Shown here one piece after another: positions 22,221 to 53,730 of a stretch of 64,000 bases of DNA. Source of the DNA: Kiritimatiellia bacterium. Its GTDB lineage: Bacteria > Verrucomicrobiota > Kiritimatiellia > RFP12 > JBMNHG01. Positions within the stretch are counted from its first letter, which is position 1; each line of letters starts with the position of its first letter. The stretch lies in assembly GCA_045627705.1 (NCBI GenBank), contig JAZQOE010000124.1, forward strand, positions 17,865 through 81,864, in the 5' to 3' direction. The notes beneath the pieces were generated by a model that made no database searches, had not been told where the DNA came from, and saw only the letters and a list, made by a program, of their open reading frames with translations. Position numbers and translations under genes: made by a program.

Positions 22221-24917
22221 ATGAACACACTTTATGCAAAACGAGGCAAGGCCGCATCCATCAGGAAAACCTGGAAGATGCGCTTCCTTGGCTTCATCAT
22301 CCTCCCTTGCGTGATCCTGCCGATTCTCTCGATGGTGTTGTACGACGCCAAGGACGTTCCATGGGTGCAGGATCCACCGAACAATCCGATCAACAATCCG
22401 CTTGGCCCGGTGGGCGCCTACACGGCCTGGGTCGGCTATTTCCTTTTCGGGTTCGCATCGTGGCTGGGTCCGATCTGGATGGCGGTGTATGGTTTCATGC
22501 TCGCTTCGAGCAAGGCCGTTGGACGCCTGTTCAAGCGGCTGATCTGGTGCCTGCTTTCCATCGCCTCCGCGGCCAGCATCGTGCAATTCGCCAATTCCAG
22601 CCTTGCCGAACAGTGCAAGTCAATCGAACTCGACTCATCCGGCGGGATCATCGGCAGATTCATGATGGACGAAGTGCTTGTCCGCTTCGTTGGACCGGTC
22701 GGGGGAATCTTCATCGCGGCCGTTCTGCTGTTGCTGTCGGTTGCGATCTTCGCCGGTTTCGGCAACATCGGAATCTTCTTCAACTGGATTGGCGAAAAGT
22801 GGAGCGACGCCAGGATGCGCCGTCTCGACCAGGCGGAAAAGGATCGCATAATCGCCGAACGCGAGCGCAAGGCCGAGGAGAAGGCCGAGCGTGAACGCGA
22901 ACGCGAGGAGGCGCGGGCGGAGAAGGAACGCCTCCGCGAGGAGGCCCGCGCCGAGAAGGAGCGCATCCGCGAGGAGAAGGAACGCGAGCGCGAAGAGCGC
23001 AGGCGCGAACAGGAAGAACGCGATCGCGAGGAGCGCGAGCGTGAAGAGCGCCGCCGCGAGGAAATCATCAGGGCCGAGGAACAGCGCGCCGCGGAAGAAC
23101 GCGCCCGCGCCGAAGCCGCGGCGGAAGAGGACGACGACGAAGGCGGCCGCCTCGAATCGGATTCGATCGACATGCGGCCTCGCGACTACGAACCGGAACA
23201 GCCGGTCCAGCCCGCTCCGCGCGCCCCTGCGCCGGTCTCGGCCACGCCTGCCGCCCCCGAAGCGCCATACGAACTTCCTTCGACCCGTCTGCTCGCGCCT
23301 GTCCCGGAATCGACGGCGGTCTATGGCGATACCGACGAAAAGCAGCGTATCCTTGTCGAGACGCTCCGCGAGTTCCGTCTCGAGGTCGAGGTCACGCACG
23401 TCGAGCGCGGTCCGGTTGTGACGACCTTCGAGCTTCTTCCCGCCTCCGGCATCCGCCCCGAGCAGATTGCCGCCATGGCCAAGACCATCGAGATGCGCCT
23501 TCGCGCAACGGGCATCCGCATCGAGGCGCCAATCCCCGGCAAGGGCGTGGTCGGCGTGGAAATCCCGAACGAAAAGGCGTGCGCCGTGACTGTGCGCGAA
23601 ATCCTCGAGGGCCCAACATGGAAGGAGGCCGAGAAGAAGATGTTCCTGCCGATGCTGCTCGGCAAGGATGCGAGCGGCCACGACCTCGTCTGCGACCTCG
23701 CTTCGATCCCGCACCTTCTCATCGCCGGTGCTACGGGTTCCGGCAAATCCGTCTGCACAAACGCGATTCTCACGGGTCTCCTGATGTCGCGCACGCCAGA
23801 CCAGTTGCGCCTCATCCTCGTCGATCCGAAGGTCGTCGAATTCTCCGGCTACAATGCCATCCCGCATCTCGTCGTGCCAATCATCACCGATCCGAAGAAG
23901 GTTTCGCTCGGCCTGGTATGGGCCATCCAGGAGATGGAGAAGCGCTACCAGATTCTCGCGAAGGCCGGCGTGAAGAACATCGCGTCGTACAACGCCCGCG
24001 CCATGCAGGTCCAGCAGGACTTCTTCGACAACGGCGCCCAGCCGCCCCCGAAGCAGGAGAAGATGCCGTATATCGTGATCGTCATCGACGAACTTGCGGA
24101 CCTGATGCTCCAGGTCGGCCGCGAAATCGACGACTCCATCTCACGCCTCGCGGCAAAGGCCCGCGCTGTCGGCATACACCTCATCCTCGCGACGCAGCGA
24201 CCGACGGTGAATGTCGTCACGGGCACCATCAAGGCGAACATCGCCGGCCGCATCGCCTTCCAGGTCGCGTCACAGGTCGATAGCAAGACAATCCTCGACG
24301 GCAAGGGCGCGGAGTCGCTCATCGGCCATGGCGACATGCTCTTCCTAAATCCGCGCGCAAGCAAGGTCATCCGCGCGCAGGGCGCGTACATCGGCGACGA
24401 AGATGCCGAGGCTGTCACCAAGTTCATCCGCGCACAGGCCGCCCCGCGATACCTGCAGGAGGTCCAGGACCAGCTTGATGCCGCCGACAACGAAGAACAG
24501 CAGTCCCAGTCGCGCTATCGCCGCGGCGGCGGCCCGTCGCGCCCTGCGCCGTCATCCGGCGGCGGATCGCAGCGCACGCCGTCCGCGCAAGGCGGCGCGC
24601 CGCTTCCCGCCGACCCCGGTGACCAGGATTTCGGCGGCGACGACGCGGATGCCGACGAAATCCTCTACCAGCGCGCGCTCCAGGTCGTGCGCGAGACGCA
24701 TCGCGCATCGACATCTTCCATCCAGCGCCGCCTCCGCATCGGCTACACCCGCGCCGCGCGTCTCGTGGATCTCATGGAGGAACGCGGCATAGTCGGCCCG
24801 CCACGCGGTTCCGACCCGCGCGAAATCCTGGTCGATCTCGATGGCGAGGTGCCGAACAATGCGGCGACTGGCTTTGACGACGATAGCGCCGATGATTCCA
24901 TCGACGAAGGGAACTAA
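22221..24917 (+). CDS. ftsK: DNA translocase FtsK/SpoIIIE
   Basis: N-terminal TM helices. A long charged E/R/K-rich linker. Motor domain with LLIAGATGSGKSVCTNAIL, VDPKVVEFSGY, IVIVIDELADLM and LILATQRPTVNVVTGTIKAN. C-terminal winged-helix gamma domain (LYQRALQVVRE...SIQRRLRIGYTRAARLVDLME). Start chosen at MNTLYAKRGK. The listed ORF starts at 22119. Confidence 0.85.
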   Translation: MNTLYAKRGKAASIRKTWKMRFLGFIILPCVILPILSMVLYDAKDVPWVQDPPNNPINNPLGPVGAYTAWVGYFLFGFASWLGPIWMAVYGFMLASSKAVGRLFKRLIWCLLSIASAASIVQFANSSLAEQCKSIELDSSGGIIGRFMMDEVLVRFVGPVGGIFIAAVLLLLSVAIFAGFGNIGIFFNWIGEKWSDARMRRLDQAEKDRIIAERERKAEEKAEREREREEARAEKERLREEARAEKERIREEKEREREERRREQEERDREEREREERRREEIIRAEEQRAAEERARAEAAAEEDDDEGGRLESDSIDMRPRDYEPEQPVQPAPRAPAPVSATPAAPEAPYELPSTRLLAPVPESTAVYGDTDEKQRILVETLREFRLEVEVTHVERGPVVTTFELLPASGIRPEQIAAMAKTIEMRLRATGIRIEAPIPGKGVVGVEIPNEKACAVTVREILEGPTWKEAEKKMFLPMLLGKDASGHDLVCDLASIPHLLIAGATGSGKSVCTNAILTGLLMSRTPDQLRLILVDPKVVEFSGYNAIPHLVVPIITDPKKVSLGLVWAIQEMEKRYQILAKAGVKNIASYNARAMQVQQDFFDNGAQPPPKQEKMPYIVIVIDELADLMLQVGREIDDSISRLAAKARAVGIHLILATQRPTVNVVTGTIKANIAGRIAFQVASQVDSKTILDGKGAESLIGHGDMLFLNPRASKVIRAQGAYIGDEDAEAVTKFIRAQAAPRYLQEVQDQLDAADNEEQQSQSRYRRGGGPSRPAPSSGGGSQRTPSAQGGAPLPADPGDQDFGGDDADADEILYQRALQVVRETHRASTSSIQRRLRIGYTRAARLVDLMEERGIVGPPRGSDPREILVDLDGEVPNNAATGFDDDSADDSIDEGN

Positions 24918-25985: not shown

Positions 25986-27338
25986 ATGGACGCACCGACA
26001 ATCGGCTTCATCTCCCTCGGCTGCGCGAAGAACCTGGTCGATTCGCAGGTGATGGCCGGTGCCCTCATGGATGCCGGCATCGCGCTCGCGGCGGTTGACG
26101 AGGCCGACGTAATACTCGTAAACACCTGCGCATTCGTCCAGGACGCGCGCGACGAGGCGATGCGCAACATCGACTGGGCCTGCGGACAAAAGACCGCGGG
26201 CAACTGCCGCGCCGTGATCGTCGCCGGCTGCCTTCCCCAGCGATACAAGGGTGCGCTTGCGAAAGTCTTCCCGCAAGTCGATGCATTCATCGGCGTCGAT
26301 GAACTCGACCTGATTGGCGAAGTCGCGCTCGCCGCGCTGAAACGACGCAAGCGCTCCGCCGCCGAAGTTCGCGTTGGCGAAGGCCTCCCATGCAGGGTGT
26401 TCAATCCCACGCGCCCAGCATTGCGCTTCTCCGGCGAGCATTGCGCCTTCCTGAAGATCGCCGAAGGATGCATGCACGCATGCGCATACTGCGCGATTCC
26501 AGGCATACGCGGACGACAGCGCTCGCGCACGCTTCCAGACATTGTCAACGAGGCAAGGGCGTTGCTCGACACAGGCGTGAAGGAACTCACGCTCATCGCA
26601 CAGGACACGACCGCGTACGGACGAGACAAGAAAAACGGCGCGCCGCGTCTCCCGGAACTGCTCCGCGCGCTTGACGCCCTCGATGGCGACTTCTGGCTTC
26701 GTCTGCTCTACGGTCATCCGGGCACTGTTGACGATGCGCTTCTCGATGCGATGTCGTCATGCCGCCACGTTGTCCCATACCTCGATCTTCCAATCCAGCA
26801 TAGTTCCCCCGCGATCCTGCGCGCCATGCACCGCGCCGATACGGTAAAGGCTGTCGCCGATCTTCCACGACGCCTTCGCGCCGCCATTCCTTCCATCACC
26901 CTTCGCACGACATGCATGGTTGGCTTCCCCGGAGAAGGCGAAGAGGAGTTCGATCAGCTGCTGGACTACGTGGGAGAAGCGCGTTTCGACGCCCTTGGCG
27001 CCTTTGTGTTCTGTCCGGAAGAGGACACCCCGGCCTACGGGTTGCCGATTCCTCCCGCGGAGGTTTCGGAGGCGCGCCGCGAAAAACTGCTCGCCCTGCA
27101 GCAGCGGATCATGCGCGAAAACCACAGGGCGCTTGTCGGGCGGACCGATCGCGCATTGCTGTTGCAACCGCCGTCCCGCAAGGGTGGCGCGTGGCTTGCT
27201 CGCACAACACGTCAGGCGCCAGAAGTCGATGGTTGGACGCGCGTGAGCAGCGTACCGTCATCCGCCAAGCCAGGCGATTTCATTTCCGTCCGCTACACTG
27301 GCGGACATGGATGCGACCTTACCGCGTGCATCTGTTAA
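25986..27338 (+). CDS. rimO: ribosomal protein S12 methylthiotransferase RimO (radical-SAM MTTase with TRAM domain)
   Basis: IGFISLGCAKNLVDSQVM (MTTase N-domain). Radical-SAM CxxxCxxC (CMHACAYCAIP). C-terminal TRAM-like region. Confidence 0.8.
   Translation: MDAPTIGFISLGCAKNLVDSQVMAGALMDAGIALAAVDEADVILVNTCAFVQDARDEAMRNIDWACGQKTAGNCRAVIVAGCLPQRYKGALAKVFPQVDAFIGVDELDLIGEVALAALKRRKRSAAEVRVGEGLPCRVFNPTRPALRFSGEHCAFLKIAEGCMHACAYCAIPGIRGRQRSRTLPDIVNEARALLDTGVKELTLIAQDTTAYGRDKKNGAPRLPELLRALDALDGDFWLRLLYGHPGTVDDALLDAMSSCRHVVPYLDLPIQHSSPAILRAMHRADTVKAVADLPRRLRAAIPSITLRTTCMVGFPGEGEEEFDQLLDYVGEARFDALGAFVFCPEEDTPAYGLPIPPAEVSEARREKLLALQQRIMRENHRALVGRTDRALLLQPPSRKGGAWLARTTRQAPEVDGWTRVSSVPSSAKPGDFISVRYTGGHGCDLTACIC
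26631..26645. repeat. copy of the dispersed palindromic motif (aaaaacggcgcgccg) inside rimO
   Basis: Exact 15-mer. Encodes KNGAP. Confidence 0.5.
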
Positions 27339-27412
27339 CTGCTCCATAAGATGGCTAACAAGGGACGCATCCCGATTTCTTCTGATGAAAGCAGCCAAAT
27401 GTTCGTTTCCGG

Positions 27413-27437
27413 AAAATCGGGGTCTGTCCCTATTTCC
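27413..27437 (+). repeat. left copy of an inverted repeat (core CGGGGTCTGTCCC) flanking the GH63-like gene
   Basis: aaaatcggggtctgtccctatttcc. The reverse-complement partner lies at 29252..29275. Confidence 0.5.
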
Positions 27438-27454
27438 ACAACAAGCCTGATGCA

Positions 27455-29197
27455 TTGGAACTTGCAATGAAACTTGACTTTTCGACTACGCCGTTTAGCG
27501 CACCGGGTTCCTATCTCGCGATTTCTCGTCACGCCAAGGGCGATCGCTGGCAGGCTTCCGCGGATGGCCTTTATCTCCGCACTGTCCATGCCAACGTATC
27601 CACGCCATTCATCTGTCGCTTTGTGCCGATTTGCGACGGAATGCCGATCGAAGATTTCACTTGCGAGATGGATCCCGCCGAACTGCGGGTTTCCACCCAA
27701 TCGGGCGAAATCCGATTCTGCTTCGCAAGCGAACGCACAATCCTTATGCGCACGCAAGGCGCGGGTCTTTCCGTCCGCCTTGATTTCCTTGCCGAGGGAA
27801 CGGTATTCAATCACTTCACGGAAATGCCGTGCGACGGCCGGACGCTTTGGATGGCGAATGCCGACAAGAATCTCTCGCGCTTCGTGCTTGACCCGCAGCG
27901 CGGCGCTCTTTCGATCGATCAGGAGTGGAAGATTTCCAGTTCCCTGCGGATGGCCGCAGAGATTGCGCCTGCGCCAGGCGAGGGCAGCGCACAGCTGGCC
28001 ATTCACGAGGTGCGCACGGAATGGGATGGCAAACCTCTGCCGAAAGATTACGATGGAGCGCGGGCCTTGCAGGCTGCCTCATTCGAAAAGTTCCTCGATG
28101 CGATGCCAAGCGTGCCAGCGGGATTCGCCAACGCCAGGATTGTGGCCTCGCACCTTCTCTGGTCAACATACGTGCTCGCGGAGGGATTCCTTCTCCGCCC
28201 CGCGCTGTATATGTCGAAGAACTGGATGACGCGCGTCTGGAGCTGGGACCACTGCTTCAATGCGCTTGCGCTGAATGTGCATCTACCGGAATTGGCATGG
28301 AGCCAGTTCATGGTCCTATTCGATCTGCAGGATCCAACGACAGGCGCGGTGCCTGACTGCGCTTGCGACGGCCAGGTCTTCTGGGGCTTTTGCAAACCGC
28401 CGATCCATGGTTGGGCATTGCGCCGCATGATGGCGGAACATGACATTCCACCGTCGCATCTCGCGGAAGCATACGACCGCATCGGGCGTTGGACGGAATG
28501 GTGGTTCTCCCGCCGCGACCTCGACCACAACGGCCTCTGCGAATACAACCACGGCAACGATTCAGGATGGGATAATTCGACGGCCTTTGCGCTTCCTCCT
28601 CCAGTCGAACTCCCGGACTTGCAGGCGTTCCTTGCAATCCAGATGGATGTCCTTGGCGAACTCGCGGAGAAACTGGACAGGCGCGACGAGGCCGCGGCAT
28701 GGCGCAAACGTTCCGATGAACTTATCGCGCACATGGCCGCGAACTGCTTTGACGCCGATGGAATGCCTATCGCGCGCCGCGCCTACTCCCGCGAGGTTGT
28801 TCCGTGCGACAGTCTGATACTCTACCTGCCGATTCTGCTCGGCAAGCGGTTGCCAGAGCGCATCCGCGCCACGCTCGTGCGCGAGCTGTCATCGGACCGC
28901 TTCCTTACCGAATGGGGCTATGCTACCGAAAGTCCGAAGAGCCCCGCATACGAATCCGATGGCTACTGGCGCGGTCCAATCTGGGCGCCAAGTACGCTGC
29001 TCATTCTCGATGGCCTTCGCGCATGCGGCGAGGAAGCGCTTGCCCGCCGCGTGGCCGAACGATTTGCGCTCATGTTCGCGAGGAGCGGCAGCGCGGAAAA
29101 CTTCGACGCCCAAACAGGCGAAGGCCTCCGCGACAGGGCATACACCTGGACCGCGAGCGCCTTCCTCGTTATCGCGCACGACTATCTGGGCTCGTAG
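27455..29197 (+). CDS. six-hairpin (alpha/alpha)6 glycoside hydrolase, GH63/MGH1-like
   Basis: WSWDHCFNALAL, EYNHGNDSGWDNS and GYWRGPIWAPSTLL are typical of mannosylglycerate hydrolase / GH63 / trehalase-type (alpha/alpha)6 glycosidases. The family assignment is tentative. Confidence 0.5.
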   Translation: MELAMKLDFSTTPFSAPGSYLAISRHAKGDRWQASADGLYLRTVHANVSTPFICRFVPICDGMPIEDFTCEMDPAELRVSTQSGEIRFCFASERTILMRTQGAGLSVRLDFLAEGTVFNHFTEMPCDGRTLWMANADKNLSRFVLDPQRGALSIDQEWKISSSLRMAAEIAPAPGEGSAQLAIHEVRTEWDGKPLPKDYDGARALQAASFEKFLDAMPSVPAGFANARIVASHLLWSTYVLAEGFLLRPALYMSKNWMTRVWSWDHCFNALALNVHLPELAWSQFMVLFDLQDPTTGAVPDCACDGQVFWGFCKPPIHGWALRRMMAEHDIPPSHLAEAYDRIGRWTEWWFSRRDLDHNGLCEYNHGNDSGWDNSTAFALPPPVELPDLQAFLAIQMDVLGELAEKLDRRDEAAAWRKRSDELIAHMAANCFDADGMPIARRAYSREVVPCDSLILYLPILLGKRLPERIRATLVRELSSDRFLTEWGYATESPKSPAYESDGYWRGPIWAPSTLLILDGLRACGEEALARRVAERFALMFARSGSAENFDAQTGEGLRDRAYTWTASAFLVIAHDYLGS

Positions 29198-29251
29198 CAA
29201 TGAAATACATGGATGGCAACAAGTTTAGGTAAGAGGTAAAAGGTTGGCGGG

Positions 29252-29275
29252 GGCAATGGGGACAGACCCCGTTTC
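29252..29275 (-). repeat. right (inverted) copy of the repeat flanking the GH63-like gene
   Basis: ggcaatggggacagaccccgtttc is the reverse complement of gaaacggggtctgtccccattgcc. The 13-bp core is identical to the copy at 27418..27430, and the small hairpin GGGG-acaga-CCCC is preserved. Confidence 0.5.
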
Positions 29276-29326
29276 GTGCGCTTCTTCCCTTGAACAATTC
29301 GGGTTTCGCGGATAATCTTTGGAAAA

Positions 29327-31249
29327 ATGCGTTCGTTCCTGAAATTCATGTCGGGACTTGTAAAGGTTGTCCTATGCATGATCGGGTTGCTGGTTGTTGT
29401 GCTGGCACTTTTCCTGAATGCCTGCTCGCGGCGAGTCCCCGATGCCCTTGCGCGCCGTATCGAGGATGCGCTTTGCACGGATGCGATCTGCGTTCGCTTC
29501 GATACCGCCGCATTCAATTTGTTCGAGGGCATCACCTTCAATCGTATGCGGCTCTACGCGCGTGGAATGCTCGGCCAGCCGCTTGTGGAAGTCGATAGCC
29601 TTCATGTCGGGCTAACCCTACGCTTTGGAAGTTCGATACCGGAATGTATCGATTCGCTTTCATTGCGCGGCCTTGATTTCGCAGAGTTCCCCGATTTCGA
29701 CAGACTGGGCGGCCTGTTGGCCGATACCGCGGAGGATGCCGGCGATGATCCCGGGTCTTCAGCGTATTCTTGGATGATGCGCCCAATCGACTTGGATATC
29801 CGCGATTTCAATTTCCTCGGCACTAGAATCGAGACTGTCACATCGCGTGTCACGCTGCGCGGGCGCATCTTCCACTTCGATGATTTCCGGTTGCACTGGG
29901 CCGGTGAAAACTGGCCCGAACACGCCATCGGAGAATTGACGCACAATATCGACGAGGGTTCATTCCGTTTTTCGCTCGACGGATATGCCACCCCAAAACC
30001 GCTTTATCCTATTTTCCATGCGATCGGTGCGAACGGCGTGGTGAGGTTTTGCGAAGACTTCTCGAATTTCCATTCGCCCCTTGAGACGAAGTTCGAGCTT
30101 TTGCAGCGCGACATGGCTTCTCCGACGGAGATTAAGGTGTCGTTGGACGGAGGAGGCTTCGACTATCTTGGCATGCCACTTGCGCATGCCCGCGCCGTGG
30201 TGACCTATTCCGAGGGCGGCATTAGAAACCAGGTGAAGGTCAAGTCGCTTTTCGCGGAGCATGGCACAGGCGTTGTTTCCGGCGATATGGAACTCGATCC
30301 AGATTGCGAGTGCCTGTCGATGAACCTGAAATCCACGGTCGCTGTTCCGGTGGTTGCAAGGGTGATCTCCGACTTCAATGCCGAACTTGCGTCGAATGTC
30401 GTCGCGGCGATTTCATTCGATGCGCCACCAACAATCACTGCTTCGGGGAAGGTGAGCTTGGACGGAAGCGAGACCGTCGATCTGCGCGGGCATATTACGT
30501 CGGTCCATCCGTTTACGGTCATCGACGTGCCCGTGGAGAGCGCCGACAGCGATTATGCCCTGACCGAGAAATACTGCGATTTCCCGAACATGTCCGCGTC
30601 TGCGTTCGGCGGGATGGTGACAGGGCTTGTGCATCTTGCGGAAATTCCCGGCACCACGAACCAAGAGTGGATGGTGCATGGCGTGGGGGAGGGGACAGGC
30701 CTCAAATTCGGGGACTTCTGCCGCGATTTGTTCGCGTACACGAACTCTTTTGGCGGCGTGCTCAATGGCACATTCGACCTTTCCGCTCCGCTTGAGCGCG
30801 GGGCTTTCCCCACTGGATTCGGACATGCCAGGGTGCATGACGGCATAATCGCGCGCATTCCGCTCTTCGCAGGCTTTACCGACTATCTCGCCGAGAATAT
30901 CCCAGGTATCGACACTGTCGTCACACAGTCTGATTTGTCGGGTGATTTTGTCTGCACCAATCGCCAGTTCCGTACGGAGAATCTTCTTGTCGAAGGCGGA
31001 TTCTTTAGCATGCGCGCGAGTGGCCGCTATCGCGACATCGACCATTCGCTTGATTTTGTCGCCAAGGTTCGTCTCCTTCGCGAGAAGACGCTTGCAGGCA
31101 AGCTTATCCGAATCGTCACCTTCCCATTTAACAAGTTCCTTGAATTCCGCGTGTTCGGCACTGCGGAAGAACCGAGGTGGGCGTACATTGGCATTTTGGA
31201 CCGCGTGATCGATATCTTCCGTGGCGAAGACGAAGAAGCCGACGAATAG
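29327..31249 (+). CDS. membrane-anchored hypothetical protein, possibly AsmA-family-like
   Basis: N-terminal TM VKVVLCMIGLLVVVLALFL. 640 aa, beta-rich. The C-terminal ...RVFGTAEEPRW is reminiscent of AsmA/TamB-type C-termini. Weak. Confidence 0.3.
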   Translation: MRSFLKFMSGLVKVVLCMIGLLVVVLALFLNACSRRVPDALARRIEDALCTDAICVRFDTAAFNLFEGITFNRMRLYARGMLGQPLVEVDSLHVGLTLRFGSSIPECIDSLSLRGLDFAEFPDFDRLGGLLADTAEDAGDDPGSSAYSWMMRPIDLDIRDFNFLGTRIETVTSRVTLRGRIFHFDDFRLHWAGENWPEHAIGELTHNIDEGSFRFSLDGYATPKPLYPIFHAIGANGVVRFCEDFSNFHSPLETKFELLQRDMASPTEIKVSLDGGGFDYLGMPLAHARAVVTYSEGGIRNQVKVKSLFAEHGTGVVSGDMELDPDCECLSMNLKSTVAVPVVARVISDFNAELASNVVAAISFDAPPTITASGKVSLDGSETVDLRGHITSVHPFTVIDVPVESADSDYALTEKYCDFPNMSASAFGGMVTGLVHLAEIPGTTNQEWMVHGVGEGTGLKFGDFCRDLFAYTNSFGGVLNGTFDLSAPLERGAFPTGFGHARVHDGIIARIPLFAGFTDYLAENIPGIDTVVTQSDLSGDFVCTNRQFRTENLLVEGGFFSMRASGRYRDIDHSLDFVAKVRLLREKTLAGKLIRIVTFPFNKFLEFRVFGTAEEPRWAYIGILDRVIDIFRGEDEEADE

Positions 31250-31277
31250 CGCGTTGCGACAATTTCGAGAAACCCCC

Positions 31278-31306
31278 TTGCTTGATTTCCAGAATTATTG
31301 TAAATT
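31278..31306 (+). promoter_or_regulatory. candidate sigma70 promoter of giant gene 2 (TTGCTT-N17-TAAATT), with RBS AAGGAG 8 nt before the ATG
   Basis: cttgcttgatttccagaattattgtaaatt. The same 'cttgatt' theme appears upstream of paralogs 3 and 4. Confidence 0.35.
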
Positions 31307-31345
31307 GGCCAAAGTCGATTCGGTTCCCCTGTAAGGAGTTGCGTT

Positions 31346-34300
31346 ATGTCGTTCAATAAATCCCGCTCGTGTCGGTTGTTCGCCGGCGCAGTTGCCGCCT
31401 TGGCGGCGTTGTTGCCATCGGTTTCCCGTGGCGATGTCGCATTGTCGGGCCAGTTGCCATCCGGATACTGGACAGACTTGCTTCACCTCGGCTCAAATTT
31501 CAATACCGATGATTTGGTCCAGGGTGGCGACGATTGGCTTGCGGGGTGGGGTGGCCAGGCTAACCAGCACCCTTATCCCGGGCAGAAGTACACCGATCTG
31601 CGGACTTCCGGCTCCACGGCTACTCCGGGTTCCCTTGTCTGGACACCGTCTTCTTTCGATGGTGGCATCTGGCAGCCAAGCAACCGCGATTCATACACGA
31701 AATTCTGGCATGTCTATGTCATCGTGCCGGGGACCAGTCCCCGCGAGGTGTATTTTTATACTCGGCAGGATGACGATGTCCGCGTCTGGAACAATGGCAT
31801 CCTGGCTTTCGAAAGCATCGGCTGGGATAACAATGCCGAGAAGGGGCCTTTCCCCGCAGTATTGGTTCCCGGGCAAAATTCGATAACCATCAGGCTCGAC
31901 GAGGGCACCGGCGGCGACTACATGGCTATCCGTGTAACCGACCGCAATAACAACCCATACAGCGATCTCACCTATTCGCTCGTCCCTAGTCCGGAGTTTT
32001 GCGATCCGCTCGCAGGCATTTCGGGGTTTACCTCGACCAACGCCGCCAAGGTTGCGTTCCTGCCTTCTTTGCCGACTGCCACCGAATACCAGTTGTCGCT
32101 TTCCAATGACCCCGCCGAGCTGGATACCAACGGCTGGCTCGCTTATACCGAGGGCTTGCAGCCTGATTCTATCATCGACTTCCCCAAGCCGGCCACAAGC
32201 CTGGCTTCGATTGCCATCTATGCCTGGTTCCGCACCAATGGGGACGACTCCACCATTGAGTCCGTCTCAAATTCAATCCTCTACAATGTCACCCCTCCCG
32301 TGGCCGTGACAAAGGATATCGTTGTCCCAATCAACCCCGCGGCCGGCCGCGAAATCCTGCCCATCGAAATCGATGCCGGTTCACATGACGACTTTGTCGG
32401 CGTGCGCAGCATGGCGGTCTCCCCCGGCAAGATCACCGGCAGCGGACCCGTCACTCTCACCGTTTACAATTCCCTCGGCGTCGCCGGTACCGCCACGGCC
32501 CAAATTACCGCCGTTCCCGCCGAAGGCCCGCTTCCCCACGGCAATTGGACGACAATGCTCCACCTGGGTACCATTTTCAACCAGGATGACCTTTCGAATT
32601 CCGGCGGCATCGATGCCGACCATCTCGAATCGTATGGCGGACAGGCCAACCAGAAGCCTTACCATGGCCTCACATACGATGGTCTTCCAACGGCCCTGCA
32701 TGGTACCGCTCCGCTCACTTGGACGGCTTCCTACGATTCCGATGGCCACTGGGAGCCTTCCGGCCGCGACAACTATATCAAGTATTGGCATGTCTATCTC
32801 AATGTCCCCGGCCCGACAAACCGTACCGCGCGCTTCAATTTCCTCCATGACGATAACGTCCGCGCCTGGAATAACGGTTCGCTTTTCTACTCCCGAAATT
32901 ACGATGGCGCATGGCATTCCGTCGATACTCCTCTCGTTCCCGGCTTGAACTCCATTACTTTCAAGCTTGAAGAGGGCGGCGGCGGCGACTATTTCGAGGT
33001 CAACATGACCGACACCGCCGGCAATTTCATGGATGATGTCACCTTCCAGCTTGATCCTACTGAGTTCAAGATCGAGAACCCGATTACGGGCAGCGTCGAT
33101 TTCCTCGGCACAAACGCCCTCCGCGTGGCCAAGATGCCACGCGATCCCGGCGCGACTGCCTACCAGTTAACGCTCAGCGGCGATGAGGCTTCGATCGATT
33201 CCGACAATTGGCTCGAATACTTCCCCGGCATGACTCCTTCCGATTTGTTCTCTTTCGCCGAGCCAGCCGCCGACGGTCCGATTACGATCCACGCCTGGAT
33301 GCGTTCCTCCATCGGTACGAACCACTACGAGGGCCCGTCGATCACCTACACCCACGACGTCCCGATCGTCAAAGTGAAGCCGGCCGACCTCGACATCGAC
33401 CCCGTCAACGGCACCACCGTGCTGCCTTCGGATATCGATGATGGCACTTCCGATCCTGTCTCCGGGATCTATTCGCTCTCGGTCGTGCCACCTGTAATCT
33501 ACGAACCCACGGATGTCACGCTCGTCGCGATGAACAACGCCGGCCTCGTTTCCACCGCCACGACCTCGGTCGCCCCGTCGTTCTGGGCGGCTCTCGATGT
33601 CGTCGGCGACGATACCGCATACTCCACCCTCGAAGCCAGCTTCCAGGCCGTCGCCTACGGTTCCCCCGCGGCGACTGCCACGGTGTTCTGCTCGTGGAAT
33701 TTCGGCGATGGTTCCGCCGCCGTCGAAGGCCAGGACCTTTTCTCCACCACGCACCTCTATGATCGCCCCGGCGCATTCGATGTCTCGCTGACGATGACCA
33801 GCGCCCTCGGCGATGTCTCGGTAACCAATATCGTCAAGGCGATCAAGATTCTTGGCGACCGCTTTGTCGCTTCCGCCGATGCCGGCGCAGGCGTTTATCC
33901 GTACACCGACGAAACCCTCGCCAGCTCCGACATCGCCGCCGTAGTCGCCGCCGCGCAGCAGGCTTCCGCCGCCGGCGCCGAAGGCGTGGTCGTCGAGGTC
34001 GGGCCGGGCAGCTACGATCTTACGACGCAGATCGACCTCGTCGAGCCTATCACCCTCCTCGGCGTCGCCGGCCCCGCGGACACGCATCTGCGGCAGACCG
34101 TCGATCAGCTGTGCGTTGTCACCGTCTCCACGAATGCCACCGTCGCCGGTCTCACGCTCCACGGCAAGTTTATCTCCAATGACAACCGCGTTGGCGGCGG
34201 CATCCGCATGACTTCCGGCGTCGCCACCAATATCGTCGTCACCGATTGTACGGGCGGTGGCCACGCCATAGGCCCGCTGTATGGCTCCGCCTATCTCGAT

Positions 34301-36370: not shown

Positions 36371-36392
36371 CCGGTTCCCGGTCGCAAAAAAA

Positions 36393-36439
36393 CGGAGCGC
36401 CGCGAAATGCCCCCGCATTTTCGCGGCGCGCCGTTTTTT
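36393..36439 (+). terminator. rho-independent terminator of giant gene 2 (built from the dispersed palindromic motif)
   Basis: aaaaaaacggagcgccgcgaaatgc-cccc-gcattttcgcggcgcgccg followed by tttttt. Confidence 0.7.
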
Positions 36440-36467
36440 CTTCGCTCGCCAGCGCAATCTTTTCCGC

Positions 36468-36496
36468 TTGATTTAAATAATGATACCATCTATACT
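36468..36496 (+). promoter_or_regulatory. candidate sigma70 promoter of giant gene 3 (TTGATT-N17-TATACT)
   Basis: cttgatttaaataatgataccatctatact. RBS caGGAGaacagctATG. Confidence 0.4.
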
Positions 36497-36541
36497 TGCG
36501 CTAATTGATGGCTTGGGTTCATCAATGTCAGGAGAACAGCT

Positions 36542-42877: not shown

Positions 42878-42904
42878 CAATCCATCGCCAACCTAAAATA
42901 ATCG

Positions 42905-42947
42905 GTGCGCCGCGGAATGCCCAACATTCCGCGGCGCACTGTTTTCG
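42905..42947 (+). terminator. rho-independent terminator of giant gene 3
   Basis: gtgcgccgcggaatg-cccaa-cattccgcggcgcac followed by tgttttcg. Confidence 0.7.
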
Positions 42948-42986
42948 TATGTCTCCGATTTCGCATATATTTATGTCATTTCAACA

Positions 42987-43009
42987 CTTAAATAGTCTGT
43001 CCCTTTAAG
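42987..43009 (+). repeat. solo copy of the 23-bp REP-like palindrome, ~210 bp upstream of carB
   Basis: cttaaatagtctgtccctttaag is identical to the copies at 52594 and 53708. Confidence 0.6.
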
Positions 43010-43133
43010 CAGATTGTCGGCTGGATGGACATTCGGTTGAGGTTCAAAAATTGAAAAGGAATCATGAATCAAGTTGCCGTGGGGGCGGGTCTGTGGCAAA
43101 ATGGAATTCCGTGCGGATGCGTGTCCCCCGTGG

Positions 43134-50834: not shown

Positions 50835-51590
50835 ATGGACACAGAATTTTCAATAAGCGATGGCGACGATATCGCCATCAATGTTCAGAAGGCGCAAGAA
50901 CGCATCGCCGCCGCGTGTGCGCGTGCGGGGCGTTCACCCGACGAAGTTGAGATTATCGCCGTGACAAAAACCCACGGCCCCGAAGTCGTACGCGACGCAT
51001 GGCGTGCGGGACTACGGCGCTTTGGGGAAAACCGCGTCCAGGAAGCGGCGTGGAAAATTCCAGAATGCGGATCTGGTCCTGAATGGCATTTGATCGGGCA
51101 CCTCCAGCGCAACAAGGTCACGCACGCGCTTCCGTTGTTTCCCGTGATCGAGGCGGTAGATTCCGTGCGCTTGCTTGATGCCATTATTGCTGCCGCCGAA
51201 GAAACCGGGGACAGACCCGAAATCCTGTTCGAGGTGAATGTGTCGGGCGAGGCGAGCAAGTTCGGGTTGAAGCCTGGTGAAGTGCCGGCGATTGTCGAAC
51301 GCGCGCTGGCGAATTCGAATATCACGGTCGGCGGACTGATGACCATGGCGCCATTCGCCCCTGAACCCGAAAAGACGCGTCCAGTCTTCGCCGGATTGCG
51401 CGAACTGCGCGACCAGCTCCAAGATGAATTTGGAATCGTGCTGCCCCACCTTTCGATGGGGATGAGCAACGATTACGAAATCGCGGTCGAAGAAGGCGCC
51501 ACCTGGGTCCGTCTAGGCACATGCCTCTTTGGGCAGCGCCCGAAGTGGAAGCCCGTCCGCGAAAACGACTTCGACTACGAAAACCAGTAG
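50835..51590 (+). CDS. yggS: YggS-family pyridoxal-phosphate homeostasis protein
   Basis: IIAVTKTH, FGENRVQE, GHLQRNK and SMGMSNDYEIAVEEGATWVRLGTCLFG. Confidence 0.8.
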   Translation: MDTEFSISDGDDIAINVQKAQERIAAACARAGRSPDEVEIIAVTKTHGPEVVRDAWRAGLRRFGENRVQEAAWKIPECGSGPEWHLIGHLQRNKVTHALPLFPVIEAVDSVRLLDAIIAAAEETGDRPEILFEVNVSGEASKFGLKPGEVPAIVERALANSNITVGGLMTMAPFAPEPEKTRPVFAGLRELRDQLQDEFGIVLPHLSMGMSNDYEIAVEEGATWVRLGTCLFGQRPKWKPVRENDFDYENQ

Positions 51591-51596
51591 TCGGAT

Positions 51597-52646
51597 TTAG
51601 TTCCCAGCAATCGGCGCCGCGACGATTTCGTAGAGGAACGATGCGTCGTTCATGTCTGTGATCAAGGCCTCGTAGCCGACGCAGGCAAGGCGCTCGCCTA
51701 GCCCTTGCGCTTCTTCCCATGAACCAAAGTTCGCGCCGAAACATAGATTCACGCCATAGAAGCGAACTGGCACACCTGGATTCTTCTCAAATTCAAAGTG
51801 CGGACCGCGCGCGACAATTCGACCGTGCGTACCTGCAGGCTTGTCTCGCGGGACAATAGCCGAAAAATCCAGTGACGAACCAGGAATAATGTCGCGGTAA
51901 GGACGCATCGGTATCCAGTCGTCGGAAGGAGTTATCCGGCACGGCCCGACATTGCCTGCAATTGTAAACGGACGCGATCCGGAAATCTTGAGGTCAAGCG
52001 ATGATGTTGCTCCCGCGTGATGAGGAGAAGTGCCGAAGGCGATGCGGATTTCAAGGATATTGGCATTCCATGTGCGGTTGTCCTGGAGCATCATGAAAAC
52101 GGGCTTTGCCGATGATATCGCAAGACTGGTCTTGCCGCTCGCGTTGACCACCTCGAACGAATCCGTGGTCGCTGTGATAATCTGTGGCTTCTCTCCACGT
52201 TCAAGCGGGATGTCTCGCCATTCGTTGCCGGCACGGACGCGGCCACCGAAGAAACTATGCGGAAGACATGTACGTAGGCAGAGGCCATTTGATTCGAAAT
52301 CGCGATCTGGCGTGCCTTCGTAATGCACGGATATCGCGCCATCGGAATCGGCGCCAACCCTGACGATGCCATTGACACAAGTTCCAGCGTCATCGCATTT
52401 TGGAATCGAGAATGGCATCGATCCATCGGCAGAGCCAGTTGTACGGAAGTCCACTGTTGCCGTGGCTGCCGACCAGTTCAATCGATAGACGCATGGCGCA
52501 AACGATAGCCCAAGTTCTTCCAAGGCCAGTTCGCCGCCCGAATACAAATTCGCCGCGACCGCGTTCGCGGCAAACATAATTATTCCTGCTACTCTTAAAT
52601 AGTCTGTCCCTTTAAGCATTTTCCGCAAGTTTTTCATTTGAGTCAT
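51597..52646 (-). CDS. hypothetical protein (possibly secreted). The start codon is uncertain because a REP-like element lies in the first 20 codons. Alternative start near 52577.
   Basis: Long ORF with high-GC codon usage. The N-terminus MTQMKNLRKMLKGTDYLRVAGIIMFAANAVAA is signal-peptide-like, but codons 11-18 are the translated REP element. Confidence 0.4.
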   Translation of the reverse strand: MTQMKNLRKMLKGTDYLRVAGIIMFAANAVAANLYSGGELALEELGLSFAPCVYRLNWSAATATVDFRTTGSADGSMPFSIPKCDDAGTCVNGIVRVGADSDGAISVHYEGTPDRDFESNGLCLRTCLPHSFFGGRVRAGNEWRDIPLERGEKPQIITATTDSFEVVNASGKTSLAISSAKPVFMMLQDNRTWNANILEIRIAFGTSPHHAGATSSLDLKISGSRPFTIAGNVGPCRITPSDDWIPMRPYRDIIPGSSLDFSAIVPRDKPAGTHGRIVARGPHFEFEKNPGVPVRFYGVNLCFGANFGSWEEAQGLGERLACVGYEALITDMNDASFLYEIVAAPIAGN

Positions 52647-53730
52647 CCTCTTCCTTTGCAGTCGCTTACGCCATCGTCACCGGGTTATTTTGTAGCCGTC
52701 TTGCGGAGCAGATTCTTATCCCGTTCCACTCCCTGCACATCCCGATGCCGTAGCCGCCCGTCTTCCTGCCCTCGCTGAAGTGACCCGCGAACTTTTCGAC
52801 CACTCCATTCACGAATTCCTTCGTCCCGACCGCGAAGCCCTTCGTAAAATGCCTCACCTTGCAGCGCAGCATCACCGGCAATTCGAGCTTGCCATGCCCC
52901 GCCAGCACTTTCCGCACTTCCTCGTGGTCGAGTGTATCCACACCCTTCGCATACAGCAGCGCACGGTACTGCGGCGCGACCGCCCCGAAGTCTGGCTTGT
53001 TCGCTTCTGGCCTGTAAATCCTTGTAATGCACAATCGCGCGTACCTGTCGCCAGCGACAGCCGCGCCATAGCTACTCCAGCGGTAGTCCTTTGGATCCTC
53101 AACTATCTGCGCACGGATCGGGTTGAGTTCGATGTACGCAGCCACAGCGGCGAGCGACCCGCCGCCTTCGACGAAAGTGCTGCCGAAGCGGCCTTGCCAG
53201 AGTGTTCCCTCGTGCCCCTCGTGATGGGCGCGGTACCATACCGAGAAGCGCTGCTTAAGGCACTGCATGAAAGGCGAGATGTCGCCCATGCGCCTCCGCA
53301 GCATCTCCTGCTCAGTCTCCAATCGGTTGATCCAATTGTGCTTGCGGTATTCGTCCCACTGGCATTTCAGCTCCGCCGCGTTCATCGAGCCATAGAGAAT
53401 TTCGACACGCTCCAGCAATATTGCCTCCGTAAGCTCGATCGCCTTCGGCACATGCACGAGCACGTGGAAGTGGTTCGACATCACGCAGTACGCCAGGACC
53501 TCCAGCCCGGAGAACGCCGCGACCTTCCGCAGCATCCTCACGAACATCTCCTTCTCCGCGTCCCCGAACGCCATCTTCTTGAACGCGCACCTGCTCACCA
53601 GGTGGTAGTATCCCTCGCCTTCGTTCTTTGCTCTTGCCTTGCGCATGGTTTTCTCCTTTGCACGCATGATACGCCGCAACTTGCGGACATGTCAATGCTT
53701 AAATAGTCTGTCCCTTTAAGAGTTTTGGTG
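52594..53730 (-). mobile_element. candidate IS200/IS605-like (RAYT-like) unit: a Y1 transposase gene bounded by two identical 23-bp REP-like palindromes in direct orientation
   Basis: Copies at 52594..52616 and 53708..53730 are identical (cttaaatagtctgtccctttaag), placed 50 bp beyond the stop and 62 bp upstream of the start of the transposase gene. A Y1 HUH transposase lies between them. Confidence 0.45.
52666..53646 (-). CDS. IS200-like Y1 (HUH) transposase / REP-associated tyrosine transposase-like protein with extended C-terminal domain
   Basis: GYYHLVSRCAFKKMAFG...VLAYCVMSNHFHVLVHVP. HUH motif (HFHVL) in the N-terminal ~140 aa. RBS AAGGAG 8 nt upstream of the Met at 53646. The listed ORF starts at 53679. 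Confidence 0.65.
   Translation of the reverse strand: MRKARAKNEGEGYYHLVSRCAFKKMAFGDAEKEMFVRMLRKVAAFSGLEVLAYCVMSNHFHVLVHVPKAIELTEAILLERVEILYGSMNAAELKCQWDEYRKHNWINRLETEQEMLRRRMGDISPFMQCLKQRFSVWYRAHHEGHEGTLWQGRFGSTFVEGGGSLAAVAAYIELNPIRAQIVEDPKDYRWSSYGAAVAGDRYARLCITRIYRPEANKPDFGAVAPQYRALLYAKGVDTLDHEEVRKVLAGHGKLELPVMLRCKVRHFTKGFAVGTKEFVNGVVEKFAGHFSEGRKTGGYGIGMCREWNGIRICSARRLQNNPVTMA

What the first reader, a model, noticed from the sequence alone, without database searches (positions are those of the whole stretch)
27413..29275. GH63-like glycosidase gene is precisely bracketed by a 21-24 bp inverted repeat sharing the GTCTGTCCC core of the REP-like element
Forty bp upstream of the glycosidase start lies aaaatCGGGGTCTGTCCCtatttcc. 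Fifty-five bp after its stop lies the reverse complement, ggcaatGGGGACAGACCCCGtttc, equivalent to gaaaCGGGGTCTGTCCCcattgcc. The 13-bp core is identical and the flanks match at 21 of 24 positions. Each copy can form a GGGG-N5-CCCC mini-hairpin. The core gtctgtccc is also the loop of the 23-bp REP-like palindrome. The pair may be terminal repeats of an ancient insertion that delivered the glycosidase gene. Alternatively they may be paired regulatory or terminator hairpins of a second REP class.
Basis: seen in the sequence. Interest (0 to 1): 0.5.

Follow-up and report, generated by a model that had tools for sequence, protein, structure and literature searches.

The report
Transposase-linked repeats flanking a glycosidase gene
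The two short inverted repeats around the glycosidase gene are real, but they are separate copies of a widespread repeat family tied to a tyrosine (HUH) transposase-like gene that also lies in this window, not the ends of an element that brought the gene in.

Summary
CGGGGTCTGTCCC occurs twice in the 64 kb, at 27418-27430 (+) and 29259-29271 (-), either side of a GH63/MGH1-like glycosidase gene (27467-29197). The 9-mer GTCTGTCCC also lies inside three copies of a 23-bp palindrome.

The motif belongs to a dispersed family, consensus AAATCGGGGTCTGTCCCCGATTT, found in several phyla, often as close dimers. Its core, GGGACAG, flanks genes for RAYT-like Y1/HUH transposases. These are the "TIRYT/TIRtron" class of Di Nocera 2013, whose repeats share GGGGWSAS.

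The window encodes one such gene (52666-53646, -). The palindrome variant bounds it on both sides. Homology to a relative stops exactly at those repeats, so that 1.13-kb unit is a discrete element.

The glycosidase behaves differently:
- The pair has the (+,-) order, never seen among 70 adjacent family pairs.
- The upstream copy has its own degenerate partner (27358-27379).
- A conspecific contig diverges 54 nt before the downstream copy.
- A 71%-identical homologue sits elsewhere without repeats.
- Codon usage is ordinary.

Verdict: two independent REP-like copies in a rearrangement-prone spot. This is a new member of a known kind, of modest interest.

The parts
27413..27437 (+). Upstream class-B repeat copy, aaaatCGGGGTCTGTCCCtatttcc, in the RimO-glycosidase spacer. 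It is the right ('+') arm of a degenerate dimer.
   Evidence: It is conserved in the conspecific contig L001, which has a perfect CCCC.
27358..27379 (-). Degenerate left ('-') arm, ACAAGGGACGCATCCCGATTTC. It is complementary to the upstream copy at 16 of 22 positions and starts 57 nt before it.
   Evidence: only 4 of 400 random sites have a partner this good; the spacer 27339-27466 folds with these arms paired (-37.6 kcal/mol, z -1.98). The spacing lies in the 18-110 nt range of family dimers.
27467..29197 (+). GH63/MGH1-like glycoside hydrolase gene (576 aa). It is the bracketed gene and not part of the repeat element.
   Evidence: PF22422, E 3.6e-53; a 99%-identical 576-aa protein. GC 0.601, GC3 0.695, codon KL 0.045.
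29253..29275 (-). Downstream class-B repeat copy, gcaatGGGGACAGACCCCGtttc on the + strand. It is a monomer 56 nt after the glycosidase stop and about 50 nt before the next gene's ATG (29327).
   Evidence: no inverted partner (best 13 of 23, typical of background). It is absent from the 101-nt tail of L001.
52666..53646 (-). RAYT-like Y1/HUH transposase gene (TIRYT type, 326 aa) with NHFH (HUH) and AAYIELNP (catalytic Tyr) motifs.
   Evidence: PF01797, E 1.8e-14. REP_Tyr_transpos 63 bits, below the cut-off of 80; invariant H59, Y171 and P176; profile hits ISDra2 TnpA 2xm3 and TnpArep 4er8. The motifs match subclass 2.1 in PMC6006769.
53698..53720 (+). Class-A repeat CTTAAATAGTCTGTCCCTTTAAG, the upstream end of the transposase-gene unit. 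On the gene's strand it reads AAAGGGACAGAC and is followed by TTGACA-18 nt-TATCAT and then the ATG.
   Evidence: (D18), 26 and 86: homology to L121 ends at 53720; the same motif-then-TTGA layout recurs in many homologous loci.
52594..52616 (+). Class-A repeat at the downstream end of the transposase-gene unit, in the same orientation as the upstream one.
   Evidence: homology to L121 ends at 52596; the L121 orthologue has the same two direct copies.
42987..43009 (+). Solo class-A repeat between the giant surface-protein gene and carB. Its similarity to the transposase unit's upstream end extends 10 nt further.
   Evidence: D18: 91% over 33 nt; 29 of 29 nt identical to the L121 end..
51201..51224 (-). 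Look-alike inside yggS (GGGACAGAC, encoding GDRP). It is probably a chance match and not an inserted copy.
   Evidence: ungapped alignment to PipY/YggS structures across this stretch.

Best explanation
The two 13-mers are independent copies of a short, non-autonomous, REP-like repeat (core GGGGTCTGTCCCC, i.e. GGGGACAGACCCC on the other strand). The family's GGGACAG core is the shared feature of the ends of genes for RAYT-like Y1/HUH tyrosine transposases, the 'TIRYT/TIRtron' class (TnpAY1 subclass 2.1-like).

Proposed mechanism: the enzyme binds and nicks single-stranded DNA at these ends, as shown for IS200/IS605 TnpA and E. coli TnpA-REP. Over time this spreads end-derived monomers and (-,+) dimers into intergenic spacers. 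The enzymology is inferred; nothing was tested on this family.

One copy, a decayed dimer at 27358-27437, sits in the RimO-glycosidase spacer. The other, a monomer at 29253-29275, sits in the next spacer. The gene lies between two elements, not inside one.

The bracketing reflects two insertions into neighbouring spacers of a rearrangement-prone region. It does not reflect delivery of the gene.

A transposase gene of this family lies 23 kb away (52666-53646). Its ends carry the sister variant of the repeat. Whether that enzyme or an unseen paralogue serves the GGGG...CCCC variant is unknown.
For: Family membership:
Of these, 52 carry two or more exact 13-mers, and 44 of 65 singletons keep the unsearched T-rich 3' flank. 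The consensus is GAAATCGGGGTCTGTCCCCGATTT.
- Multi-copy loci come from Pseudomonadota, Acidobacteriota, Planctomycetota, Kiritimatiellia and Desulfobulbaceae.

Link to the transposase family:
- A related contig, L002, has 7 copies in 13.8 kb, 6 of them around or inside a homologous Y1 gene.
- The L056 gene is flanked by GGGGACAGACCCC and GGTCTGTCCC. L023, L065 and L119 also have gene fragments within about 500 nt of a copy.
- In 80 metagenome loci of homologues, GGGACAG lies on the coding strand within 300 nt upstream in about 40 of 74. It usually sits at -40 to -130, with CTGTCCC downstream in 15.
- Published descriptions match. TIRs flanking TIRYT genes share GGGGWSAS and form dimers or clusters (PMC3733652). 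Subclass 2.1 has NH[YF]H and YIELNP motifs (PMC6006769), and the window protein has both.

Positive control for a repeat-bounded unit:
- Homology between the window and L121 runs exactly from 52596 to 53720, repeat edge to repeat edge, with unrelated genes outside.

The glycosidase is not such a unit:
- Adjacent family pairs are 43 (-,+), 17 (+,+), 10 (-,-) and 0 (+,-). The glycosidase pair is (+,-).
- The upstream copy has its own partner.
- L001 (98.6% nt identity) diverges at 29199/29200, 54 nt before the downstream copy.
- Homology to L002 covers only 27467-29187, and its gene lies between pgi and nadA without repeats.
- Composition is ordinary.
Against: - Once the yggS hit is discounted, the only two convincing GGGG...CCCC copies in 64 kb flank the same gene. 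I estimate the chance of that at roughly 0.02-0.05, so an association with this gene or its junctions is not excluded.
- Both junctions of the gene are breakpoints. Synteny with relatives L124 and L125 ends at the RimO stop. Synteny with L001 ends at the glycosidase stop.
- The (-,+) rule comes mostly from proteobacterial loci. PVC-group loci show more direct clusters, and the window's own transposase unit has direct ends.
- The copy number in the source genome is unknown.
- No enzyme of this subclass has been tested biochemically, so cleavage and mobilisation are inferred.
- The transposase gene in the window is flanked by the other variant of the repeat.
Confidence: 0.75

Rival explanations
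1. The pair are the terminal inverted repeats of a roughly 1.86-kb cargo element, or the remains of a composite one, that carried the glycosidase gene into this site.
For: - The gene is bracketed within 60 nt on each side by the only two good copies in the window.
- Relatives with 83% and 73% identical RimO lack both the glycosidase and the repeats downstream of RimO.
- The nearest homologue of the gene (71%) lies in a different context.
- Other close homologues are about 50% identical and are named as Clostridia where a name is given.
Against: - The (+,-) order is absent among 70 adjacent family pairs.
- An enzyme acting on one strand would need both hairpin loops on that strand. This is inferred from IS200/IS605 and from the direct ends of the window's own unit.
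- The upstream copy pairs with 27358-27379 instead.
- L001 shares RimO, the repeat and the gene, but diverges 54 nt before the downstream copy.
- No homology outside the coding sequence with L002.
- No compositional anomaly.
- I saw no target-site duplication by eye.
- In the relatives the genes after RimO are also different, so there is no true empty site.
Confidence: 0.07
2. Whatever their origin, the copies now serve the host. They could act as small hairpins that end or stabilise the RimO and glycosidase transcripts, or as operator sites for a transposase-like DNA-binding protein. That would make the bracket a regulatory arrangement.
For: - Each copy forms a GC-rich 4-5 bp hairpin followed by a T-rich run in the family consensus.
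- The upstream dimer gives the spacer a fold at z -1.98.
- In homologous transposase loci the motif sits just before a TTGA(-35)-like box, which suggests protein binding next to a promoter.
- The downstream copy lies 67 nt before the next gene's ATG on its coding strand, a position within the -40 to -130 range seen in those loci.
- Classical REPs are known to stabilise mRNA 3' ends (background in PMC3733652).
Against: - The terminator scan calls neither site, and the region has no more terminator-like sites than shuffles.
- The short stretches fold no better than shuffles.
- There is no compensatory change in the extended stem (-2/+2 pair).
- The lineage has another, far stronger terminator-like palindrome family.
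- No Rfam match.
- The L002 homologue has no such sites.
Confidence: 0.15
3. The pair is a chance repetition of a common GC-rich oligomer.
For: One of the six 9-mer hits, in yggS, does look like chance.
Against: - The 13-mer count is 2 against 0.10 expected, and 0 of 100 shuffles reach it.
- The flanks follow the family consensus.
- The same motif recurs in related contigs and next to homologous transposase genes.
Confidence: 0.02

Closest known systems
TIRtrons / TIRYT-associated repeats (Di Nocera et al. 2013, PMC3733652); TnpAY1 subclass 2.1 of Quentin et al. 2018 (PMC6006769), which that paper equates with Bertels' RAYT Group 1
   Same: - A RAYT-like Y1/HUH gene with NH[YF]H and YIELNP motifs.
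- Flanking repeats carry GGGGWSAS; here GGGGACAG.
- The repeats also occur as moderately abundant monomers, dimers and clusters.
- The flanking-16-mer frequency reported for Group 1 is modest, about 12 per replicon. That is compatible with the low density seen here.
   Different: - The window's gene is 326 aa against a median of 238 for subclass 2.1. It has an insertion of about 50 aa between the HUH and Tyr motifs, more like subclass 2.3.
- Its two ends are direct, not inverted.
- Quentin et al. report no REP-like partner for subclass 2.1. Here a near-invariant 23-nt palindrome is found dispersed in several phyla.
- I found no published listing of this exact sequence.
Classical REP/REPIN-RAYT systems (E. 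coli, Pseudomonas; Nunvar 2010, Bertels & Rainey 2011)
   Same: - Short palindromic extragenic repeats, often as inverted dimers at a fixed spacing.
- Copies flank a low-copy Y1 transposase-like gene.
- Copies can sit in frame inside the transposase gene. L002 shows this, and PMC6006769 reports it for subclass 2.4.
   Different: - There is no GT[AG]G tetranucleotide at the hairpin foot.
- The stem is very short (4-5 bp).
- The sequence is conserved across phyla, whereas classical REPs are lineage-specific and co-evolve with their RAYT.
- The density in this window is low: 2 + 3 copies in 64 kb.
IS200/IS605 insertion sequences (IS608, ISDra2)
   Same: - The HUH/Tyr catalytic core is homologous (profile hit to ISDra2 TnpA 2xm3, E 7e-5).
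- The window's 1.13-kb unit has similar end sequences in direct orientation on one strand, as IS200/IS605 ends do (my knowledge of IS608).
- It behaves as a discrete unit between relatives.
   Different: - The Tyr motif is Y...NP, not Y...Q.
- The protein is twice as long, with a C-terminal extension.
- There is no tnpB.
- There is no sign of multiple identical copies.
- The ends are near-identical 23-bp palindromes rather than distinct left and right ends.
Composite or cargo-carrying transposons bounded by inverted repeats
   Same: Two inverted copies of one short sequence lie within 60 nt of each end of a single accessory-type gene.
   Different: - The orientation is not used by the family.
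- Homology boundaries do not coincide with the repeats.
- I saw no target duplication.
- There is no transposase inside.

Membership tests
TIRYT-associated repeat family (TIRtron ends and their dispersed derivatives) | The repeat carries the GGGGWSAS motif. | tested here: met
   The downstream copy reads GGGGACAG on the + strand. The upstream copy reads AGGGACAG on the - strand in the window and GGGGACAG in L001. The motif definition comes from PMC3733652.
TIRYT-associated repeat family (TIRtron ends and their dispersed derivatives) | The same motif flanks a RAYT-like Y1/HUH gene in the same or closely related genomes. | tested here: met
   - Exact GGGGTCTGTCCCC copies flank the genes in L002 and L056.
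- The window's gene is flanked by the AGGGACAGAC variant.
- GGGACAG lies upstream in about 40 of 74 homologous loci.
- Caveat: no gene flanked by the GGGG...CCCC variant lies in the window itself.
TIRYT-associated repeat family (TIRtron ends and their dispersed derivatives) | Dispersed copies occur in the genome as monomers, dimers or clusters. | tested here: inconclusive
   This is shown for other genomes: 52 of 117 loci have two or more copies, and 42 close pairs are (-,+). It is also shown for the related contig L002. The source genome beyond this window could not be fetched; the window has 2 good GGGG...CCCC copies and 3 palindrome-variant copies.
TnpAY1 subclass 2.1 / RAYT Group 1 (the protein at 52666-53646) | HUH motif NH[YF]H/NHVH, Tyr motif YIELNP/Y[IV]HLNP, and a C-terminal extension. 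| tested here: met
   The protein has SNHFH at residues 57-61, AAYIELNP at 169-176, and about 150 aa after the Tyr motif, compared with Table 1 of PMC6006769. The authors' own subclass HMMs were not available. Length and the internal insertion also resemble subclass 2.3.
Classical GTAG-tagged REP / REPIN | A 5' GT[AG]G tetranucleotide at the foot of the hairpin. | tested here: not met
   The 5' flank consensus is AAA[TA]C, not GT[AG]G. The palindrome variant has TAG inside its loop, not at the foot.
Classical GTAG-tagged REP / REPIN | High copy number (more than 100 per genome). | not testable with these tools
   Only 64 kb of the source genome was available.
   The pair is (+,-). There are 0 such pairs among 60 close and 10 distant adjacent pairs. 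Gene units are (-,gene,+) in L002, L056 and many metagenome loci, or direct.
   L001 homology ends at 29199, 54 nt inside the downstream repeat. L002 homology covers 27467-29187 only. Relatives lack the gene after RimO but also have different downstream genes, so there is no clean empty site. By contrast, the transposase unit does end at its repeats.
   GC is 0.601 against 0.604 for the window. GC3 is 0.695. The codon-usage divergence of 0.045 is among the lowest of 29 ORFs.
Intrinsic transcription terminator | A GC-rich stem of at least 5 bp followed by a U tract. | tested here: not met
   The scan of 27000-29700 reports neither site. The stems are 4 bp in the window copies.

The most novel reading that the evidence does not exclude
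The GGGACAGAC core may be a recognition sequence kept almost unchanged across at least five phyla for one large clade of Y1/HUH enzymes. The 23-nt palindrome dimers would then be their MITE-like offspring. That would contradict the published statement that subclass 2.1 has no REP-like partner.

In this Kiritimatiellia genome the copies may also mark or create the borders of strain-variable segments:
- Both junctions of the glycosidase gene are breakpoints.
- The adjoining 13.7-kb block of giant surface-protein genes (29327-42877) is bracketed, in the family's canonical (-,+) sense, by the copy at 29253-29275 and the solo palindrome at 42987-43009.
Probability: 0.3. Interest if true: 0.55.

Novelty: new member of a known kind. 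Interest (0 to 1): 0.33.

Why it matters
For this finding, the result removes a tempting but wrong inference. An inverted pair around a gene is not evidence that the gene arrived as a mobile unit.

The window also supplies its own control, the 1.13-kb transposase unit whose homology to a relative ends exactly at its repeats. It shows what a truly repeat-bounded unit looks like.

More broadly, TIRYT-type enzymes are common but have been described in only two papers in the searched library. I found no experimental test of them there.

A short, nearly invariant DNA partner shared across phyla, plus a compact element with defined ends, gives concrete substrates. Binding and cleavage assays could use them to test whether this clade mobilises DNA or has been put to another use.

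Tried and rejected
- **Exact-protein look-ups.** Look-ups of the window's glycosidase, of the 640-aa neighbour, of RimO and of the nearest TIRYT relative P0121 found nothing. I used near relatives instead.
- **Known RNA families.** No Rfam family matched, either at gathering thresholds over the whole window or at E<=1 over 27250-29400. There are no tRNA genes that could serve as integration sites.
- **Literature search for the sequence.** It returned only unrelated primer hits. The supplements of the two key papers do not list GGGGACAG or CTGTCCCC.
- **The yggS copy as an in-frame insertion.** Rejected, because the alignment to PipY/YggS is ungapped there.
- **A partner for the downstream copy.** None was found above background.
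- **Fuzzy search for more decayed GGGG...CCCC copies.** With up to 3 errors allowed, the count is no higher than in Markov-simulated sequence.
- **Structural selection on the extended AAATC/GATTT stem.** Rejected: when position -2 is A, position +2 is T in only 14 of 72 copies.
- **Identifying the source assembly.** The cluster look-up gave no accession or name. The organism is placed in Kiritimatiellia only through named RimO relatives.
- **The L001 tail.** The 101 nt after the glycosidase stop match nothing in the window, so what replaces the downstream region in that strain is unknown.
Full report
**1. The observation**

CGGGGTCTGTCCC occurs at 27418-27430 (+) and 29259-29271 (-) and nowhere else in the window, even with one mismatch allowed. 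The expected count is 0.10, and 0 of 100 shuffles reach 2. The repeat finder extends the pair to 34-nt arms at 76% complementarity (I19).

The gene between them is a GH63/MGH1-like glycoside hydrolase (PF22422, E 3.6e-53). It most likely starts at ATG 27467, because a 99%-identical database protein is 576 aa long.

GTCTGTCCC occurs six times, against 0.54 expected:
- Two occurrences are the pair itself.
- Three lie inside CTTAAATAGTCTGTCCCTTTAAG, at 42987-43009, 52594-52616 and 53698-53720.
- One lies inside yggS.

The yggS hit falls in an ungapped, conserved part of the protein, so I treat it as chance. Below I call the GGGG...CCCC form class B and the 23-bp palindrome class A.

**2. The genes around it**

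Upstream lie FtsK, a RodZ-like HTH protein and the methylthiotransferase RimO. Downstream lie a 640-aa protein with no family match and two giant PKD/beta-helix proteins. Named RimO relatives place the organism in Kiritimatiellia.

**3. The repeat is not unique to this gene**

A contig from a relative, L002, carries a glycosidase that is 71% identical. That gene sits between pgi and nadA. The contig holds seven class-B copies in 13.8 kb, and none of them brackets its glycosidase. Six cluster around and inside a 339-aa ORF that matches Y1_Tnp and the REP-associated tyrosine transposase model.

The window has a homologue of that ORF at 52666-53646 (-), 35% identical with E 1e-50. Two class-A copies flank it at about 50 nt on each side.

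**4. How widespread the motif is**

For uniform base composition I estimate about 140 chance hits, so the count alone proves nothing. Three other features show that most hits are real:
- 52 loci hold two or more exact 13-mers.
- 44 of 65 singletons keep the T-rich 3' flank, which was not part of the search pattern.
- Single genomes contribute many loci.

The consensus is GAAATCGGGGTCTGTCCCCGATTT. Multi-copy loci come from Beta- and Gammaproteobacteria, Acidobacteriota, Planctomycetota, Kiritimatiellia and Desulfobulbaceae.

Adjacent copies within 200 nt are (-,+) 42 times, (+,+) 12 times, (-,-) 6 times and (+,-) never. Ten more distant adjacent pairs also include no (+,-). Here '-' means GGGGACAGACCCC on the + strand.

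**5. The link to the transposase family**

Four of the 117 loci have a homologous gene or gene fragment within about 500 nt of a copy. In L056 (Phytopseudomonas flavescens) a 233-aa gene lies between GGGGACAGACCCC and GGTCTGTCCC.

I then fetched 80 metagenome loci that encode homologues 35-55% identical to the window's protein. GGGACAG is the most frequent 7-mer upstream of these genes, present in 34 of 74 upstream stretches. Counting everything within 300 nt upstream gives about 40 of 74 loci. The motif usually sits at -40 to -130 on the coding strand. CTGTCCC follows within 400 nt of the match end, mostly at 220-320 nt, in 15 loci. The usual unit is therefore (-, gene, +).

In many loci a TTGA box follows the motif by about 11 nt. 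In the window the upstream copy is followed by TTGACA, 18 nt, TATCAT and then the ATG.

**6. What is already known**

Di Nocera et al. 2013 described RAYT-like genes flanked by terminal inverted repeats that share GGGGWSAS. Some of those repeats form moderately abundant families of monomers, dimers and clusters. They named the enzymes TIRYTs and the units TIRtrons (PMC3733652).

Quentin et al. 2018 place most TIRYTs in TnpAY1 subclass 2.1, which they equate with Bertels' Group 1. Its hallmarks are NH[YF]H, YIELNP and a C-terminal HTH-like extension. They state that they found no REP-like partner for it (PMC6006769). Bertels et al. 2017 report that 16-mers flanking Group 1 genes occur about 12 times per replicon.

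The match to this window is good:
- GGGGACAG fits GGGGWSAS.
- The window's protein has NHFH and AAYIELNP.
- A profile of the family hits ISDra2 TnpA and E. coli TnpA-REP structures.

The window's protein differs in length. It is 326 aa against a median of 238, and it has an insertion between the two catalytic motifs.

**7. A positive control inside the window**

L121 is a relative whose TIRYT is 81% identical to the window's. Its nucleotide homology to the window runs from 52596 to 53720 and nowhere else. That span goes from the outer edge of one class-A repeat to the outer edge of the other. All surrounding genes differ.

The 1.13-kb repeat-gene-repeat unit is therefore a discrete element that sits at different places in two relatives. 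Its ends are in direct orientation. To my knowledge this is also how IS200/IS605 ends are arranged.

**8. The glycosidase does not behave like that**

- **Orientation.** The pair is (+,-), the one arrangement the family never shows.
- **A separate partner.** The upstream copy has its own inverted partner at 27358-27379. It matches at 16 of 22 positions, and only 4 of 400 random sites do as well. It starts 57 nt before the copy, within the family's dimer spacing. The spacer folds with these arms paired (z -1.98). The downstream copy has no partner.
- **The conspecific contig.** L001 is 98.6% identical over 2.8 kb. It keeps RimO, the upstream repeat and the gene, but diverges at 29199/29200. That is two bases after the stop codon and 54 nt before the downstream copy.
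- **The divergent homologue.** Homology with L002 covers only the coding sequence.
- **Composition.** GC, GC3 and codon usage are typical of the window.
- **Flank similarity.** The two copies share 16 of 34 flank positions. That is above the family's mode of about 11 but inside its range.

**9. What remains odd**

Synteny with relatives L124 (RimO 83% identical) and L125-L127 (73%) ends exactly at the RimO stop. Neither the glycosidase nor the repeats follow RimO there, but the genes that do follow are also different.

So both junctions of the glycosidase are breakpoints, at different evolutionary depths, and the only two good class-B copies in 64 kb sit in them. I read this as repeats accumulating in, or helping to create, plastic junctions. 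Classical REPs are known to behave this way (my background knowledge). I cannot exclude a closer tie.

A related lead is the 13.7-kb block 29327-42877. It is bracketed in the canonical (-,+) sense by the downstream class-B copy and the solo class-A copy.

**10. Mechanism, with status marked**

Shown here:
- Family membership of the repeat.
- The link between the repeat and the transposase-like gene family.
- Conserved catalytic residues in the protein.
- The discrete transposase unit ending at its repeats.
- The glycosidase gene and its flanking repeats do not form a unit.

Inferred from IS200/IS605 and TnpA-REP enzymology:
- The enzyme binds GGGACAG-containing ends and nicks single-stranded DNA.
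- End-derived monomers and dimers spread as non-autonomous elements.

Unknown:
- Which enzyme serves class B in this genome.
- Whether the copies now affect transcription.

The terminator scan does not call them. There is no compensatory variation in the extended stem. No Rfam family matches.

**11. Verdict**

The 'second REP class' reading is supported. The 'insertion that delivered the glycosidase' reading is not. This is a new member of a known but little-studied kind. Interest is modest for the finding itself and somewhat higher for the cross-phylum conservation of the motif and the cleanly bounded transposase unit.

Noticed in passing
window 52594-53720: A compact 1.13-kb unit: class-A repeat, a 326-aa Y1/HUH transposase-like gene with its own TTGACA-18 nt-TATCAT promoter-like site, then a second class-A repeat in direct orientation. 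Homology to relative L121 ends exactly at the two repeat edges, and the neighbouring genes differ.
   Followed up: yes
window 2982, 6249, 9644, 11208, 20127, 36419, 43136, 43156, 54791, 57881; L002 4780-4830: A second, more abundant palindrome family, A-run + CGGCGCGCCG (which contains an AscI site) + T-run. It sits mostly after genes, sometimes as tandem pairs that can form a long hairpin. AACGGCGCGCCGYTT gives 8 strand matches against 0.05 expected. The family is shared with the relative L002, and it looks like the lineage's terminator.
   Followed up: partly
window 29200-43010: The 13.7-kb block holding the 640-aa gene and two giant PKD/beta-helix genes is bracketed, in the family's usual (-,+) sense, by the class-B copy at 29253-29275 and the solo class-A copy at 42987-43009. 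The conspecific contig L001 diverges from the window at 29199/29200. The block could be strain-variable.
   Followed up: no
L001 2820-2920 versus window 29200 onward: A conspecific contig (98.6% nt identity) has unrelated sequence from two bases after the glycosidase stop. That sequence matches nothing in the 64-kb window.
   Followed up: partly
L002 5790-5845: The relative's transposase-like ORF carries two class-B copies in frame (…GDRPQ…GDRPR…). Relative to the window's protein this region is a 13-aa insertion. Repeats inserted in frame in their own transposase gene were reported so far for subclass 2.4.
   Followed up: partly
L058 4530-5470 (Planctomycetota MAG): A tandem array with a period of about 153 nt holds seven '+' copies of GGGGTCTGTCCCC interleaved with three '-' variants. 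It resembles a BIME-like cluster.
   Followed up: no
window 51201-51224 (inside yggS, 50835-51590): AAACCGGGGACAGACCCGAAAT resembles the repeat, including its flanks, and encodes GDRP. The protein aligns without a gap to PipY/YggS structures here, so this is a look-alike and not an insertion.
   Followed up: yes
window 38342-42328 and 34182-36048: The giant surface-protein genes contain internal repeats of about 1920 nt and about 1380 nt at 60-81% identity (D1, D3, D4, D8, D9).
   Followed up: no
window 22881-23131 (inside ftsK): A run of 33-nt-period, Glu/Arg/Ala-rich coding repeats lies in the FtsK linker region (D2).
   Followed up: no
Supplement of PMC6006769: A subclass 2.4 REP of Aggregatibacter aphrophilus is listed as GTAGGGACAGACTTTATGTCTGTCC. 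Its stem arms are the same GGACAGAC/GTCTGTCC as the core here, which hints at a deeper relation between GTAG-REPs and these repeats.
   Followed up: no
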